From IMG/VR virus record IMGVR_UViG_2585427782_000003, positions 1-13,042 of that record: DNA of 13,042 bases. One strand, given 5' to 3'. The notes below the pieces were generated by a model. That model worked only from the letters and a program-made list of their open reading frames with translations. It searched no databases and was not told the DNA's origin. This DNA is from a virus. Its lineage: Duplodnaviria; Heunggongvirae; Uroviricota; Caudoviricetes. A program made the translations under genes and the position numbers. Of this stretch, positions 1 through 7,560 are shown piece by piece. Every line of letters starts with the position of its first letter. Positions within the stretch are counted from its first letter, which is position 1.

Positions 1-221
1 TCCAGGTGACGTTAACCAGTTAACAATTAACGCCGGATACAGAGAATCCACCCATAACACTGTTTTTGGTTTTAACTGTTCCGCGTGCGCTCAGCCGCAT
101 TCACCGCATCACAAAATTCACTTTAAAAAGGGCGGCAGAGCAGTCACGGAGTAAAACTGATACCGCCAAACGTCACCAGAAAATTGATAACAGGGGGCGT
201 TGCAGCGGGGTTGTCACTTAA

Positions 222-237
222 GGAAGGTGCGAATAAG
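222..237. repeat. IS5 left terminal inverted repeat
   Basis: GGAAGGTGCGAATAAG read directly. Confidence 0.85.
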
Positions 238-368
238 CAGGTCATTTCTTCCCAAGCTGACTCGCTGATTAAAATTTCTCGGATCTGGGCCGATTTTTTT
301 CCCGCAAACACATCGAATCAGCCTATTTAGGCTATTTTTTCCACCATTTCTGGCGTTATTTCCGGTTT

Positions 369-1394
<1,026 letters not shown>

Positions 1395-1401
1395 TCAGGA
1401 A

Positions 1402-1417
1402 CTTGTTCGCACCTTCC
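1402..1417. repeat. IS5 right terminal inverted repeat
   Basis: CTTGTTCGCACCTTCC, reverse complement of the left IR with one mismatch. Confidence 0.85.
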
Positions 1418-2280: not shown

Positions 2281-2517
2281 TTTTATGGATCACCTTTCTG
2301 ATTGATTTCATATTGGCGAGGTGACGTGAGTTAAGTAGAATGGCTGCGGGTGCTTGAGGCTATCTGTCTCAGGCATGAACACTGAAAGGCAGATAGAGAA
2401 AAGCCCCAGTTAACATTTCGCGTCCTGCAAGACGCTTAACATTAATCTGAGGCCCAATCTATGTCTCACAAATGTAGGTTAGCCTCTTACGTGCCGAAAG
2501 GCAAGGGGAAGCAGGCT

Positions 2518-2673
2518 ATGAAGCAGCAAAAGGCGATGTTAATCGCCCTGATCGTCATCTGTTTAACCGTCATAGTGACGGCACTGGTAACGAGGAAAGA
2601 CCTCTGCGAGGTACGACTCCGAACCGGCCAGACGGAGGTCGCTGTCTTCACAGCTTACGAACCTGAGGAGTAA
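2518..2673 (+). CDS. hok: Hok/Gef-family membrane toxin (type I toxin), HokD/RelF-like
   Basis: 51-aa product MKQQKAMLIALIVICLTVIVTALVTRKDLCEVRLRTGQTEVAVFTAYEPEE, one residue different from E. coli HokD as recalled; the six-frame ORF 2461-2673 is an in-frame upstream extension of this. Confidence 0.85.
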   Translation: MKQQKAMLIALIVICLTVIVTALVTRKDLCEVRLRTGQTEVAVFTAYEPEE

Positions 2674-2740
2674 GAGACCTGGCGGGGGAGAAATCCCTCG
2701 CCACCTCTGATGTGTCAGGCATCCTCAACGCACCCGCACT

Positions 2741-2770
2741 TAACCCGGTTCGGCGGGTTTTGTTTTTTTC
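2741..2770 (+). terminator. Intrinsic terminator downstream of hok
   Basis: Hairpin AACCCG/CGGGTT (2742-2759) followed by a T-run TTTTGTTTTTTT. Confidence 0.5.
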
Positions 2771-2840
2771 TGGCATTCTGGTTTACAATTCGCACGTCAG
2801 CCTGAACACCTGACACCTGCTGCGCCAGCAGAGAAAACAG

Positions 2841-3113
2841 ATGGCGCACAAAACCAAATTTCACAATTCTGATACCGACCTTGCCATCCGGCATGGGCGG
2901 CGTTCACACGCATTTAAAACCGACTGGTACCAACACCCACCATGTACTGAAGAACAGGCCGAATGGCTAATTCATAACTACCGCAGACGCGGATACGAGA
3001 TTAAGAAAGCCCTCAGCCTCGATTATCGTCACTGGATAATCTCCGTCAGGCTTCCTTACTCTGAACGCCCACCGCGTCCGTCCCGCACATTCCAGCAACG
3101 CATCTGGAGGTAA
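2841..3113 (+). CDS. Small nin-region phage protein of unknown function (possibly Rem-like)
   Basis: 90-aa ORF immediately upstream of the DUF968-like gene; GGAGG for the next gene overlaps its 3' end; product not recognised with certainty. Confidence 0.6.
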   Translation: MAHKTKFHNSDTDLAIRHGRRSHAFKTDWYQHPPCTEEQAEWLIHNYRRRGYEIKKALSLDYRHWIISVRLPYSERPPRPSRTFQQRIWR

Positions 3114-4170: not shown

Positions 4171-4551
4171 ATGACTGAACGCATAGAATTTGTTTTGCCT
4201 TACCCGCCAACGGTGAACACTTACTGGCGTCGTCGTGGCAGCACATATTTTGTATCAAAAGCCGGGGAGCGTTATCGCCGGGCAGTGGCGCTTATTGTTC
4301 GCCAGCAGCGGCTGAAATTAAGCCTGTCCGGAAGGTTGGCAATAAAAATTATTGCAGAACCACCGGATAAGCGCCGCCGTGACCTGGACAATATTCTGAA
4401 AGCGCCGCTGGATGCGCTGACGCATGCGGGGTTGCTAATGGACGATGAGCAGTTTGATGAAATCAATATCGTTCGTGCTCAGCCAGTATCTGGTGGACGT
4501 CTGGGGGTGAAGATTTACCCCATAATGCTTGAAGGGCAGGTCAAAAAATGA
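4171..4551 (+). CDS. rusA: RusA-family Holliday junction resolvase
   Basis: 126-aa ORF; N-terminal LPYPPTVNTYWRRRG and central RRRDLDN motifs resemble E. coli RusA; start codon abuts the previous stop (TAAATG). Confidence 0.9.
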   Translation: MTERIEFVLPYPPTVNTYWRRRGSTYFVSKAGERYRRAVALIVRQQRLKLSLSGRLAIKIIAEPPDKRRRDLDNILKAPLDALTHAGLLMDDEQFDEINIVRAQPVSGGRLGVKIYPIMLEGQVKK

Positions 4552-5369
4552 AACTGGAAGATTTACCGAAATACTACTCCCCAAAATCCCCCGGCCTGAC
4601 TGATGCATCGGCCTCAACGTCGAAAGATGCGCTGAGTATCACTGATGTGATGGCCGCGCAGGGCATGACACAGAATCGGGCTGAGATGGGGTTTTCTGCG
4701 TTCCTTGGGAAAATGGGCATTAGTATGAATGACAGAGAGCGGGCAACAGAATTGCTGACAGAATATGCACTCAGTCGGTGTGATCGCGTGGCGGCGTTAA
4801 GAAAACTCCCGGCAGAAATAAAACCGGTAGTGATGCGCATTATGGCTTCGTACGCTTTTGAGGATTATGCCCGCAGCGCAGCGAGTAAAAAGCAGTGCCC
4901 TTGTTGCTATGGGGAAAAATTTATTGAAAGCGTAGTTTTTACAAACAAGGTCCAGTATCCGGATGGTAAGCCGCCGGTATGGGCAAAGTGTACGAAAGGT
5001 GTGTATCCGTCTTACTGGGAAGAATGGAAAAAAGTCAGGGAGGTGGTAAAAGTTGCCTGTCCGGAGTGTGGCGGAAAGGGTGAGGTTTCCACCGCCTGTA
5101 AGGATTGCCGTGGGCGTGGTGTCGCCATTCATCGTGAAGAGTCGGTAAAACGTGGTATGCCTGTTATCAGAGACTGCCAGCGTTGTGGTGGTCGTGGCTG
5201 TGAAAGGCTACCATCAACGGAGGCATTTAATGCCATATGCAAAGTGACGAGTGCTATCACGCTTGATACGTGGAAAAAATCAGTGAAACGCTTTTACGAT
5301 ACGTTGGTGGTTCGGTTTGACATTGAAGAGGCATGGGCGGAGCGGCAGTTAAAGAGGGTAACGCGATAG
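4548..5369 (+). CDS. Late-gene antiterminator Q-like protein with DnaJ-type zinc-finger repeats
   Basis: 273-aa ORF overlapping the rusA stop (ATGA); carries CPECGGKG, CKDCRGRG and CQRCGGRG (CxxCxGxG) repeats plus CPCCYGEK; lies immediately upstream of a lambda PR'-like promoter, which is the main basis for the Q assignment. Confidence 0.7.
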   Translation: MKLEDLPKYYSPKSPGLTDASASTSKDALSITDVMAAQGMTQNRAEMGFSAFLGKMGISMNDRERATELLTEYALSRCDRVAALRKLPAEIKPVVMRIMASYAFEDYARSAASKKQCPCCYGEKFIESVVFTNKVQYPDGKPPVWAKCTKGVYPSYWEEWKKVREVVKVACPECGGKGEVSTACKDCRGRGVAIHREESVKRGMPVIRDCQRCGGRGCERLPSTEAFNAICKVTSAITLDTWKKSVKRFYDTLVVRFDIEEAWAERQLKRVTR

Positions 5370-7042: not shown

Positions 7043-7118
7043 GGCCCTTTAGCTCAGTGGTGAGAGCGAGCGACTCATAATCGCCAGGTCGCTGGTTCAA
7101 ATCCAGCAAGGGCCACCA
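7043..7118 (+). tRNA. ileZ: tRNA-Ile2 (anticodon CAU, lysidine type; reads AUA)
   Basis: 76-nt cloverleaf: acceptor GGCCCTT/AAGGGCC, D-arm GCTCAGTGGTGAGAGC, anticodon loop CTCATAA, T-arm GGTTCAAATCC, 3' CCA; close to E. coli ileX as recalled. Confidence 0.9.
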
Positions 7119-7125
7119 TCACATA

Positions 7126-7202
7126 CCGCCATTAGCTCATCAGGATAGAGCGCCAGCCTTCGAAGCTGGTTGCGCGGGGTTCGAGTCCTCGATGGCGGTC
7201 CA
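7126..7202 (+). tRNA. argN: tRNA-Arg (anticodon UCG; reads CGA/CGG)
   Basis: 77-nt cloverleaf: acceptor CCGCCAT/ATGGCGG, anticodon stem CCAGC/GCTGG with loop CTTCGAA, T-loop TTCGAGT, 3' CCA. Confidence 0.8.
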
Positions 7203-7215
7203 TTATCTGTACCCT

Positions 7216-7292
7216 GCGTTGTTAGCTCAGCCGGACAGAGCAATTGCCTTCTAAGCAATCGGTCACTGGTTCGAATCCAGTACAACGCGCCA
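7216..7292 (+). tRNA. argO: tRNA-Arg (anticodon UCU; reads AGA/AGG)
   Basis: 77-nt cloverleaf: acceptor GCGTTGT/ACAACGC, anticodon stem ATTGC/GCAAT with loop CTTCTAA, T-arm ACTGG-TTCGAAT-CCAGT, 3' CCA. Confidence 0.85.
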
Positions 7293-7332: not shown

Positions 7333-7528
7333 AAATGTCTCACAATTCAGACGGTTGACTGTTGTCTGGTTGGCGGGGAGTTTGTTAAAAGAAACTGGCA
7401 TGGTGAATCCCCCTGTGCGGAGGGGCAATCAGCGAGTAGGTATATGGGATAATCGCGGATTCAGGTGCTGGTACTGAATTCACCGGGAGGCACCCGGCAC
7501 CATGCAATGGCACATAGCGCCACTCTCC

Positions 7529-7560
7529 AGCCCCTCTCCGGAGGGGCTGTTTATATTGAT
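7529..7560 (+). terminator. Terminator-like hairpin
   Basis: Perfect 8-bp stem AGCCCCTC/GAGGGGCT with loop TCCG, followed by a T-rich tract GTTTATATTGATTTT. Confidence 0.4.

What the first reader, a model, noticed from the sequence alone, without database searches (positions are those of the whole stretch)
2290..2770. Solitary hok locus with in-frame upstream ATG and structured flanks; antisense sok not yet located
The Hok ORF is essentially HokD, but there is no relBE upstream as in Qin. Here an upstream in-frame ATG (2461) would add 19 residues. The leader (2330-2410, imperfect inverted repeats around GCTATCTGTCTC/GCAGATAGAG) and the 3' region (hairpin GGCGGGGG...CCCTCGCC at 2681-2704, then a terminator) resemble hok mRNA fold-back elements. 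A sok-like antisense RNA is expected on the minus strand over the leader or start, but I could not identify a convincing promoter by eye.
Basis: partly seen in the sequence, partly recalled or inferred. Interest (0 to 1): 0.45.

Follow-up and report, generated by a model that had tools for sequence, protein, structure and literature searches.

The report
Intact prophage hok/mok/sok toxin-antitoxin locus
This is an ordinary, complete copy of the well-known hok/mok/sok RNA-controlled toxin-antitoxin cassette carried by a decayed lambda-like prophage of E. coli, and the "missing" antisense sok gene lies on the minus strand at about 2469-2397, where the family model places it.

Summary
Window 2313-2769 holds a complete hok/mok/sok type I toxin-antitoxin locus, with every family element present at sequence level.

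- **Plus strand:** hok promoter, tac 5' end, 5' hairpin, ucb, mok Shine-Dalgarno and ATG (2461), dcb, hok (2518-2673), a hairpin after the stop codon, fbi (2723-2735) and a terminator.
- **Toxin:** Hok is 50/51 identical to K-12 HokD.
- **The upstream in-frame ATG** is the classical mok start, not an anomaly.
-35 TTGCCT (2504-2499), a 17-nt spacer, -10 TAACCT (2481-2476), start near 2469, a hairpin and U-tail ending near 2397. A consensus scan does not single this promoter out. However, the 29 bases from -35 to -10 are identical to the sokW promoter of phage Sp5, whose -10 was inactivated experimentally (Takada 2021). The key promoter bases are invariant across 25 homologs from several genera of Enterobacterales.
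- **Regulatory fold:** the 5'-3' tac-fbi pairing appears in the predicted fold and is kept with compensatory changes in 24 of 25 homologs.
- **Rfam caveat:** the "sok" model hits the hok-sense strand, so it marks the hok leader, not the sok gene.
- **Prevalence:** at least 80% of the 481-nt locus query is matched in 4072 of 5426 complete E. coli genomes.
- **K-12:** its relBE-hokD arrangement is the truncated derivative.

Already known; low interest.

The parts
2313..2341 (+). hok/mok promoter: -35 TTGGCG (2313-2318), 17-nt spacer, -10 TAGAAT (2336-2341)
   Evidence: It is the only sigma-70-like site reported in 2200-2900 (9/12). The -10 ends 6 nt before G2348, where the Rfam model and cross-genus conservation both begin. 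A -10-like hexamer sits at the same position in all 7 loci of alignment A1. Use as a promoter is inferred.
2348..2768 (+). Full-length hok mRNA (about 421 nt), predicted to be the translationally inert form
   Evidence: MFE -170.8 kcal/mol, z -6.5. On 25 homologs, 81.5% of cells in this structure are paired, against 37-45% when partners are slid. 43 pairs show changes on both sides, against 16-24 in the slid controls. The 5' and 3' ends are inferred, not mapped.
2348..2359 (+). tac (translational activator) element, GGGUGCUUGAGG, at the mRNA 5' end
   Evidence: It pairs with 2723-2735 in the full-length fold. It pairs with 2401-2407 once the 3' end is removed.
2360..2396 (+).
   Evidence: It is helix 2: 88.8% of cells paired, 3 pairs with changes on both sides.
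2401..2407 (+). ucb (upstream complementary box), AAGCCCC
   Evidence: It pairs with tac in the 3'-truncated fold and in the Rfam consensus. In the full-length fold, C2404-C2407 pair with the hok SD G2505-G2508 instead.
2397..2469 (-). Predicted Sok antisense RNA (about 73 nt). The single-stranded 5' tail GUGAGACAUAGAUU (2469-2456) covers the mok AUG. The hairpin (2455-2403) has a 5' arm covering the mok SD. The U-rich tail is UUUUCU (2402-2397).
   Evidence: -31.1 kcal/mol, z -5.6 (folded as 2393-2469). The same tail-hairpin-U-tail architecture is predicted for the matching segment of Sp5-like, Rac, mEp460, IncY, hokC and R1-type loci. The sokW northern probe YO-592 of Takada 2021 (PMC8621323) corresponds to window 2440-2469. 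The ends are inferred to within about 3 nt.
2476..2504 (-). sok promoter: -35 TTGCCT (2504-2499), 17-nt spacer, -10 TAACCT (2481-2476)
   Evidence: All 29 bases are identical to the Sp5-type loci. In Sp5, primers YO-421/422 change this -10 (TAACCTA to GAGCCGG) and the promoter-less construct becomes toxic. In 25 homologs, the -10 positions 2 (A) and 6 (T) and the -35 TTGC are invariant. By consensus alone it scores only 7/12 and is not distinguishable from chance sites.
2449..2452 (+). mok Shine-Dalgarno, GAGG
   Evidence: It lies 8 nt upstream of ATG 2461 and is invariant in 25 homologs. It pairs with dcb in the full-length fold.
2461..2673 (+). mok reading frame (70 codons), in frame with hok and sharing its stop codon
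   Evidence: The homologous ORF is annotated as the 70-aa ORF-33c in Stx2 phage I. mok is annotated as such in phage Rac MN652886.
2482..2486 (+). dcb (downstream complementary box), GCCUC
   Evidence: It pairs with GAGGC 2449-2453. All five pairs are invariant among the sequences that have letters at those columns (helix 5).
2503..2508 (+). hok Shine-Dalgarno, AAGGGG (AAGGAG in 23 of 25 homologs)
   Evidence: pair 94/204.
2518..2673 (+). hok toxin gene (51 aa), HokD/HokW type
   Evidence: Pfam HOK_GEF 79.3 bits. PHROG 251 'MokW-like host killing' 114 bits. The 100%-identical DNA in strain FORC_069 is annotated hokD, WP_000813262.1.
2680..2703 (+). G+C-rich hairpin just after the stop codon; presumed 3' end of the processed, active mRNA
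   Evidence: -20.6 kcal/mol, z -4.9. It corresponds to helices 17-18 (78-95% of cells paired). In R1, mutations in the equivalent last stem-loop cause loss of function (PMC9841398). Its role here is inferred.
2723..2735 (+). fbi (fold-back inhibitory) element, CCUCAACGCACCC
   Evidence: The duplex with tac is -21.5 kcal/mol; 0 of 200 shuffled tac sequences bind as well. The same duplex occurs 45-57 nt after the stop codon in 24 of 25 homologs, with compensatory U:A to C:G and G:C to A:U changes.
2742..2769 (+). Intrinsic terminator of hok mRNA (stem 2742-2759 plus T-run)
   Evidence: z -2.6.

Best explanation
Window 2313-2769 is a complete hok/mok/sok type I toxin-antitoxin cassette of the HokD/HokW subgroup. 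It lies in the nin-like region of a lambdoid prophage, between queH and a DUF968 gene.

The proposed mechanism follows the plasmid R1 model. The sequence elements are shown here; the functional steps are inferred from R1 and from hokW-sokW.

1. A stable mRNA of about 421 nt starts near 2348.
2. It is born inert because its 5' tac box (2348-2359) pairs with the 3' fbi box (2723-2735), locking the leader.
3. Slow 3' trimming back to the hairpin at 2680-2703 removes fbi.
4. The 5' end then refolds onto ucb (2401-2407), and the mok translation start becomes available.
5. Translation of mok (ATG 2461) is needed for translation of the overlapping hok (2518-2673). Hok is a 51-aa peptide that damages the inner membrane.
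6. An antisense Sok RNA of about 73 nt, presumed unstable, is made from the minus strand (promoter 2504-2476, start near 2469, end near 2397).
7. Sok pairs with the mok start codon and Shine-Dalgarno. This blocks mok, and therefore hok, and marks the duplex for RNase III.

Hok therefore appears only when Sok synthesis stops. That could be on loss of the element or, as shown for hokW-sokW, after DNA damage and prophage induction.
For: Toxin and leader:
- Hok matches Pfam HOK_GEF at 79.3 bits (cut-off 22).
- Hok is 50/51 identical to K-12 HokD, and the hok CDS is 94% identical in DNA to the Sp5-like hokW.
- The Rfam hok-leader model RF01794 scores 120.5 bits (cut-off 59) over 2348-2523, full length.

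mRNA folding:
- tac-fbi pairing is present in the MFE of the full-length RNA (z -6.5).
- The pairing is conserved at a fixed distance after the stop codon in 24 of 25 homologs from Escherichia, Shigella, Kluyvera, Photorhabdus, Pantoea, Citrobacter, Pseudocitrobacter and an R1-type plasmid. The compensatory changes are U4:A to C4:G and G12:C to A12:U.
- Deleting the last 62 nt in silico moves the 5' end onto ucb, as in the published R1 model (PMC9841398).

sok:
- The 29 bases from -35 to -10 are identical to the Sp5-type sokW promoter.
- Mutating that -10 abolished antitoxin activity, and sokW RNA was detected by northern blot (PMC8621323).
- Promoter positions -35 TTGC and -10 A2/T6 are invariant in 25 homologs.
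- The predicted Sok has the family architecture: a free 5' tail over the mok AUG, a hairpin, and a U-tail.

Prevalence and annotation:
- At least 80% of the 481-nt locus query is matched in 4072 of 5426 complete E. coli genomes.
- Phage records annotate the match as MokW, HokD or hok/mok.
Against: - Nothing here shows expression, processing, toxicity or neutralisation for this particular copy.
- The sok promoter is weak by consensus (7/12). Four chance sites on the same strand score 8/12, so its identification rests on homology.
- The MFE folds do not reproduce every published detail. In the full-length fold the mok SD pairs with dcb rather than with ucb, and ucb pairs with the hok SD.
- According to the introduction of bioRxiv 10.1101/2025.08.07.668861, intact chromosomal hok loci (hokA, hokB, hokC) did not mediate post-segregational killing. 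Sequence integrity therefore does not guarantee activity.
- The hok SD carries a rare A-to-G change at G2507.
- The host prophage is decayed: an IS5-like element replaces its immunity region.
Confidence: 0.9

Rival explanations
1. It is a sequence-intact but physiologically silent relic. All the elements are present, but the locus no longer kills or stabilises anything, as reported for intact chromosomal hokA, hokB and hokC loci.
For: [quoted passage not shown]
- The surrounding prophage has lost about 3.9 kb of its immunity and replication region to an IS5-like element.
- The hok SD variant G2507 adds a C:G pair to the helix that sequesters the hok SD in the full-length fold.
Against: - No element is disrupted.
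- The closest tested relative, hokW-sokW, is a working toxin-antitoxin pair (PMC8621323). Its leader is 91% identical, its CDS 94% identical, and its sok promoter is identical from -35 to -10.
- HokD protein is toxic when expressed.
- Compensatory changes across genera indicate continued selection on the RNA structure of the family.
Confidence: 0.2
2. The sok gene is the plus-strand feature 2348-2523 reported by Rfam as 'sok antitoxin'. On this reading the antitoxin would be transcribed in the same direction as hok.
For: The RF01794 hit, named 'sok antitoxin (CssrC)', lies on the plus strand at 120.5 bits.
Against: - The model's last three consensus bases are the hok AUG, and its first base coincides with the predicted hok mRNA 5' end.
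- The model also hits the hok-sense strand in the R1-type, Sp5-like and Rac loci.
- At 157 nt it is far longer than the antisense RNA of about 55-73 nt predicted in every locus.
- The experimentally mutated sokW -10 lies on the opposite strand.
- The model therefore describes the hok leader; Sok is the reverse complement of its central part.
Confidence: 0.02
3. It is primarily a phage lysis-timing or abortive-infection accessory, not an addiction module. Hok would be released when prophage induction or an infecting phage shuts off Sok, helping lysis or killing the cell.
For: - hokW-sokW aids Sp5-mediated lysis and roughly doubles phage release after mitomycin C (PMC8621323).
- The window locus sits in the early-to-late region upstream of the Q antiterminator gene at 4548-5369.
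Against: - This is a statement about biological role, not a different molecular mechanism. It is compatible with the best explanation.
- This prophage lacks its immunity and replication region, so a role in its own induction is doubtful.
Confidence: 0.3

Closest known systems
hokW-mokW-sokW of Stx2 phage Sp5 / 933W (Takada et al. 2021, PMC8621323)
   Same: - Lambdoid-prophage location.
- 51-aa Hok (CDS 94% identical in DNA) and a 70-codon in-frame mok.
- Leader 91% identical.
- sok promoter identical over all 29 bases from -35 to -10.
- Same predicted Sok architecture.
- The hokW mRNA probe YO-597 matches the window 30/30.
   Different: - The Hok C-terminus is TAYEPEE here and VDYESEK in HokW.
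- The Mok N-terminus is MSHK here and MLNT in MokW.
- Within the transcribed sok region, 89% identical overall, most differences fall in the Sok 5' tail and mok start (7 mismatches in the 30-nt sokW probe region). This suggests a separate Sok specificity.
- The 3' UTR diverges after fbi, and the terminator is different.
- The upstream neighbour is queH here and an EaA-like ORF region there.
hokD (relF) of the Qin prophage, E. coli K-12
   Same: Hok protein is 50/51 identical (I34L). The CDS and 3' UTR, including fbi and terminator, are 97.7% identical over window 2504-2767.
   Different: K-12 has relB-relE fused 14 nt upstream of the hok ATG. It lacks the hok promoter, tac, ucb, mok start, sok transcript and sok -10, and has no RF01794 hit. 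The window holds the full-length form; K-12 holds the truncated derivative.
hok/mok/sok of plasmid R1 (parB), the family prototype
   Same: The order of elements is the same: tac, 5' hairpin, ucb, Sok target, mok SD, mok ATG 57 nt in frame before hok, dcb, hok, post-stop hairpin, fbi. RF01794 hits both loci. The Sok architecture is the same.
   Different: - Leader only 53% identical and CDS 52% identical in DNA.
- The window's Sok hairpin carries an extra inner stem (GCGUC...GACGC) of about 18 nt.
- The sok promoter hexamers are TTGCGC/TATCCT in the R1-type locus and TTGCCT/TAACCT here.
- R1 is a plasmid-stabilisation context rather than a prophage context.
hokC (gef)/mokC/sokC chromosomal locus
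   Same: Same family. About 75-78% DNA identity over the locus, with tac and fbi conserved.
   Different: It lacks the inner stem of the Sok hairpin. mok is in the +1 frame because of a 1-nt insertion (GGTCAAGG). It sits at a fixed chromosomal site next to dnaJ rather than in a prophage.

Membership tests
hok/mok/sok type I toxin-antitoxin family | Small hydrophobic Hok/Gef-family toxin ORF | tested here: met
   Pfam PF01848 at 79.3 bits against a cut-off of 22. PHROG 251 at 114 bits. The NCBIfam Hok HMMs match but fall below their cut-offs (49 against 73).
hok/mok/sok type I toxin-antitoxin family | Overlapping upstream mok reading frame with its own Shine-Dalgarno | tested here: met
   ATG 2461 lies 8 nt after GAGG (2449-2452) and 57 nt upstream of hok, in frame with it. 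The Sp5-like and R1-type loci have the same layout.
hok/mok/sok type I toxin-antitoxin family | Conserved, structured hok mRNA leader (tac stem, Sok-target hairpin, mok SD/dcb stem) | tested here: met
   RF01794 at 120.5 bits against a cut-off of 59, with all 157 model positions matched.
hok/mok/sok type I toxin-antitoxin family | Long-range 5' tac to 3' fbi pairing in the full-length mRNA | tested here: met
   It is present in the MFE. The duplex is -21.5 kcal/mol, with 0 of 200 shuffles as good. It is conserved with compensatory changes in 24 of 25 homologs.
hok/mok/sok type I toxin-antitoxin family | Refolding of tac onto ucb after 3' truncation | tested here: met
   This is an in-silico result only. 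The MFE of 2348-2706 pairs 2348-2355 with 2401-2407. 3' processing itself cannot be tested with these tools.
hok/mok/sok type I toxin-antitoxin family | Convergent antisense sok gene complementary to the mok translation start, with its own promoter and a hairpin plus U-tail | tested here: met
   Met at the level of sequence and homology. The promoter at 2504-2476 is identical to the mutationally validated sokW promoter. The predicted RNA at 2469-2397 has z -5.6 and the family architecture. Transcription was not observed.
hok/mok/sok type I toxin-antitoxin family | Hok toxicity, neutralisation by Sok, RNase III cleavage of the duplex | not testable with these tools
   These were shown for the close relative hokW-sokW (PMC8621323) and for HokD protein, not for this copy.
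K-12-type hokD (relBE-hokD operon of Qin) | HokD protein sequence | tested here: met
   50/51 identical (I34L). RefSeq names the identical DNA hokD.
K-12-type hokD (relBE-hokD operon of Qin) | relB-relE immediately upstream, with hok lacking its own promoter, leader, mok and sok | tested here: not met
   The window has queH upstream and a full leader. K-12 homology starts at window 2504, and RF01794 is absent from the K-12 locus.
hokW-sokW (Sp5/933W) allele | Same Sok recognition sequence (5' tail) and Hok sequence | tested here: not met
   There are 7 mismatches in the 30-nt sokW probe region, concentrated over the Sok 5' tail. The Hok C-terminus also differs. It belongs to the same subgroup but is a distinct allele.

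The most novel reading that the evidence does not exclude
The most novel reading not excluded concerns specificity and tuning. The divergent Sok 5' tail could make this copy an orthogonal hok/sok pair that does not cross-talk with the other hok loci in the same genome (median of 2 places matching this locus per genome that has any). The rare hok SD change G2507 completes a 4-bp CCCC:GGGG helix that sequesters the hok SD in the full-length fold, and could retune the cassette to be quieter in a decayed prophage. Together with the invariant UUACGAA (TadA-type editing motif) at Tyr47, this would give allele-specific layers of control on a prophage Hok.
Probability: 0.15. Interest if true: 0.2.

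Novelty: already known. Interest (0 to 1): 0.08.

Why it matters
It matters little beyond annotation.

The locus is a textbook cassette. At least 80% of the 481-nt locus query is matched in about 75% of complete E. coli genomes. Its closest relative, hokW-sokW, has already been characterised experimentally.

Three points are of practical use:
- Automatic annotation marks only the hokD CDS. It omits mok and sok.
- The Rfam family named "sok" reports the hok-sense leader. Anyone using that hit as the antitoxin gene gets the wrong strand and the wrong ends.
- The window shows the full-length form from which the K-12 relBE-hokD arrangement was derived by truncation.

Tried and rejected
1. **Consensus promoter scans.** The standard scan found no minus-strand promoter. 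A relaxed scan ranked the true sok site at 7/12, behind four chance sites at 8/12. sok cannot be called from consensus alone; it was located by homology and conservation.
2. **Rfam "sok" hit as the sok gene.** Rejected. The hit lies on the hok-sense strand here and in the R1-type, Sp5-like and Rac loci, and it ends in the hok AUG.
3. **Permissive Rfam search of 2200-2900.** It gave nothing else credible; the only other hit was a 18-bit snoRNA chance match.
4. **NCBIfam Hok HMMs.** They match but stay below their curated cut-offs, so they do not support equivalog-level naming.
5. **tRNA-anticodon-like hairpin around the UACG at Tyr47 (TadA substrate mimic).** The local fold of 2640-2675 is no better than shuffles (z 0.08). 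Only the invariant UUACGAA sequence stands.
6. **Published mok SD/ucb pairing of the inactive mRNA.** It was not reproduced by MFE. In the full-length fold the mok SD pairs with dcb and ucb pairs with the hok SD, so that step remains unverified here.
7. **Collinear genome for the whole window.** None was found. The best records cover 81-85%, because the prophage is mosaic and carries an IS.
8. **Direct blastn of the window locus against the R1-type locus.** It aligns only 63 nt. The comparison with R1 rests on the MAFFT alignment and the Rfam model.

Full report
**Observation.** The ORF at 2461-2673 (70 aa) contains the 51-aa Hok ORF at 2518-2673. It matches Pfam HOK_GEF at 79.3 bits (cut-off 22) and PHROG 251 "MokW-like host killing" at 114 bits. 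It differs from K-12 HokD by a single residue, I34L. The ATG at 2461 lies 57 nt upstream and in frame. The leader inverted repeat is the inner part of a 5' hairpin at 2348-2407 (-27.5 kcal/mol, z -4.3). The 3' hairpin is at 2680-2703 (z -4.9), and a terminator follows at 2742-2759 plus a T-run. The whole predicted transcript, 2348-2768, folds at -170.8 kcal/mol with z -6.5.

**What it is.** The Rfam leader model RF01794 matches 2348-2523 over its full length at 120.5 bits (cut-off 59). The only sigma-70-like site in 2200-2900 is TTGGCG-17-TAGAAT at 2313-2341. It would place the start at about G2348, which is also where the model and the cross-genus conservation begin.

In the full-length fold, the first 12 nt (GGGUGCUUGAGG, tac) pair with CCUCAACGCACCC at 2723-2735 (fbi). 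I fetched 47 related loci and aligned 25 distinct full-length ones. They come from Escherichia, Shigella, Kluyvera, Photorhabdus, Pantoea, Citrobacter, Pseudocitrobacter and an R1-type plasmid.

- The tac-fbi duplex recurs 45-57 nt after the stop codon in 24 of 25.
- The exception is a hokC copy whose sequence diverges completely just after the post-stop hairpin and which has no fbi box; an insertion there is likely but was not checked.
- Compensatory changes are present: U4:A to C4:G, and G12:C to A12:U.
- On the whole predicted structure, 81.5% of cells are paired, against 37-45% when partners are slid.
- 43 pairs change on both sides, against 16-24 in the slid controls.
- One caveat applies: the structure was derived from one member of the alignment.

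Removing the last 62 nt in silico moves the 5' end onto AAGCCCC (ucb, 2401-2407). This is the tac/fbi to tac/ucb switch described for R1 (PMC9841398).

**The in-frame ATG.** This is mok. It has a GAGG Shine-Dalgarno at 2449-2452, invariant in the 25 homologs. The Sp5-like phage ORF, MLNTCRLASYVPKGKEKQA followed by Hok, and the R1-type locus both have the same 57-nt in-frame spacing. Variants with a 1-nt insertion (GGTCAAGG), such as Rac 442/2, IncY plasmids and hokC, have mok in the +1 frame. Both arrangements are normal for the family.

**Locating sok.** Consensus scanning fails. The standard scan reports nothing on the minus strand. A relaxed scan gives the true site 7/12, below four chance sites at 8/12. 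Homology resolves it.

- Takada et al. (PMC8621323) cloned hokW-sokW of Sp5, detected sokW RNA with probe YO-592, and abolished antitoxin activity by mutating the sokW -10 with primers YO-421/422.
- Those primers replace plus-strand TAGGTTA, which is minus-strand TAACCTA.
- The window has the same bases at 2475-2481.
- All 29 bases from -35 TTGCCT (2504-2499) through the 17-nt spacer to -10 TAACCT (2481-2476) are identical in the window and the Sp5-type loci.
- The hokW probe YO-597 matches the window 30/30.
- Across the 25 homologs, the -35 TTGC and the two critical -10 positions (A at position 2, T at position 6) are invariant, while the other -10 positions vary.

A start about 7 nt downstream of the -10, near 2469, gives an RNA of about 73 nt.

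- Its free 5' tail, GUGAGACAUAGAUU, is complementary to the mok AUG.
- Its hairpin (2455-2403) has a 5' arm that covers the mok SD.
- It ends in a UUUUCU tail (-31.1 kcal/mol, z -5.6).
- The same tail-hairpin-U-tail architecture is predicted for the Sp5-like, Rac, mEp460, IncY, hokC and R1-type loci.
- Sequence divergence is concentrated in the 5' tail.

**Rfam strand caveat.** RF01794 is named "sok antitoxin", but it hits the hok-sense strand here and in the R1-type, Sp5-like and Rac loci. Its consensus begins at the hok mRNA 5' end and ends in the hok AUG. It therefore models the hok leader in its tac/ucb (truncated mRNA) conformation, not the antisense RNA.

**Context and prevalence.** The upstream gene is queH. 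Downstream lie a 90-aa ORF, then DUF968, RusA, a Q antiterminator, a DNA methylase, three tRNAs and a SASA esterase. This is the nin-to-late region of a lambdoid prophage.

- The 481-nt query is 100% identical to E. coli FORC_069, where only the hokD CDS is annotated.
- At least 80% of the query is matched in 4072 of 5426 complete E. coli genomes and in 74 phage records, annotated as MokW, HokD, gef or hok/mok.
- In K-12 (Qin), relB-relE abuts hokD. Homology to the window starts 14 nt before the ATG, at window 2504, inside the sok -35, and RF01794 is absent.
- The K-12 copy is therefore the truncated derivative and the window holds the complete form. From memory, this agrees with Pedersen and Gerdes 1999, which I could not read here.

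**Mechanism and confidence.** I am about 0.9 confident that this is a sequence-intact member of the hok/mok/sok family working by the R1 scheme. In that scheme an inert full-length mRNA is locked by tac-fbi. 3' trimming lets it refold, after which mok-coupled hok translation is possible, and Sok blocks the mok start. What is shown here is the presence, integrity and conservation of every element. What is inferred is transcription, processing, toxicity and neutralisation.

Activity of this particular copy is less certain, at about 0.7.

- Intact chromosomal hok loci have been reported not to mediate killing.
- The hok SD has a rare A-to-G change (G2507). It completes a CCCC:GGGG helix with ucb in the full-length fold; 23 of 25 homologs have a C·A mismatch there.
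- The prophage is decayed.

**Novelty.** Already known. The closest characterised system is hokW-sokW. This copy is a distinct allele of the same subgroup, and nothing about it is unexpected.

Noticed in passing
window 222-1417: There is an IS5-like element: 16-bp terminal inverted repeats GGAAGGTGCGAATAAG and a 326-aa DDE transposase on the minus strand at 369-1349. Its two flanks map about 3.9 kb apart in the otherwise near-identical FORC_069 prophage. The repressor, cro, YdaT and replication gene block is therefore missing here, and the 4-bp flanks differ (TTAA and TTAG). This looks like an IS-associated deletion, leaving a defective prophage.
   Followed up: partly
window 130-181 (-): A DicF antisense sRNA gene matches Rfam RF00039 at 76.7 bits over the full model length. 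It lies immediately left of the IS5-like element.
   Followed up: no
window 7043-7292 and 7369-7558 (+): Three phage-borne tRNAs (CAU, annotated Ile in RefSeq; Arg-UCG; Arg-UCU) are followed by an STnc100-family sRNA (133 bits). They lie downstream of the Q antiterminator and methylase genes, in the layout seen upstream of stx in Stx phages. No stx gene follows here; iraM and a SASA esterase do.
   Followed up: no
window 2348-2523 (+); also L005 332-503, L003 1521-1695, L002 1518-1694: Rfam RF01794, 'sok antitoxin (CssrC)', consistently hits the hok-sense strand and ends in the hok AUG, including in an R1-type locus. The family models the hok mRNA leader rather than Sok, so annotations derived from it have the wrong strand and ends for the antitoxin.
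   Followed up: yes
window 2655-2661 (Tyr47 codon UAC at 2656-2658): UUACGAA is invariant at nucleotide level in all 25 aligned hok homologs, including synonymous positions. The introduction of a 2026 preprint states that hokC, hokD and hokE mRNAs are A-to-I edited by TadA at this position, changing Tyr to Cys. A local tRNA-like hairpin was not supported by folding (z 0.08).
   Followed up: partly
window 2507: The hok Shine-Dalgarno is AAGGGG here, where 23 of 25 homologs have AAGGAG. The change turns a C·A mismatch into a C:G pair in the predicted CCCC(2404-2407):GGGG(2505-2508) helix of the full-length mRNA. An E. albertii locus has a leader identical to the window over the 75 nt upstream of the hok ATG, including this variant.
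   Followed up: partly
window 2499-2504 and alignment A2 columns about 196-200: A 1-nt indel inside the sok -35 (TTGCCT or TTGACC) also switches mok between in frame with hok (57 nt) and the +1 frame (58 nt). One base thus affects the antisense promoter, the mok frame and the stem just upstream of the hok SD.
   Followed up: partly
window 2715-2894 (-): The 59-aa minus-strand ORF that RefSeq annotates as a hypothetical protein in FORC_069 overlaps the hok fbi box and terminator. It is probably a spurious call.
   Followed up: no
loci L023 (Acinetobacter idrijaensis, 275 bp), L027 (Xanthomonas pisi, 431 bp) and phage hit H5 (Actinobacillus phage vB_Apl-pPE4): Near-identical E. coli-type hok loci appear on tiny contigs of unrelated genera and in an 'Actinobacillus' phage record (97.9% identity). 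These look like assembly contamination or misattributed hosts.
   Followed up: no
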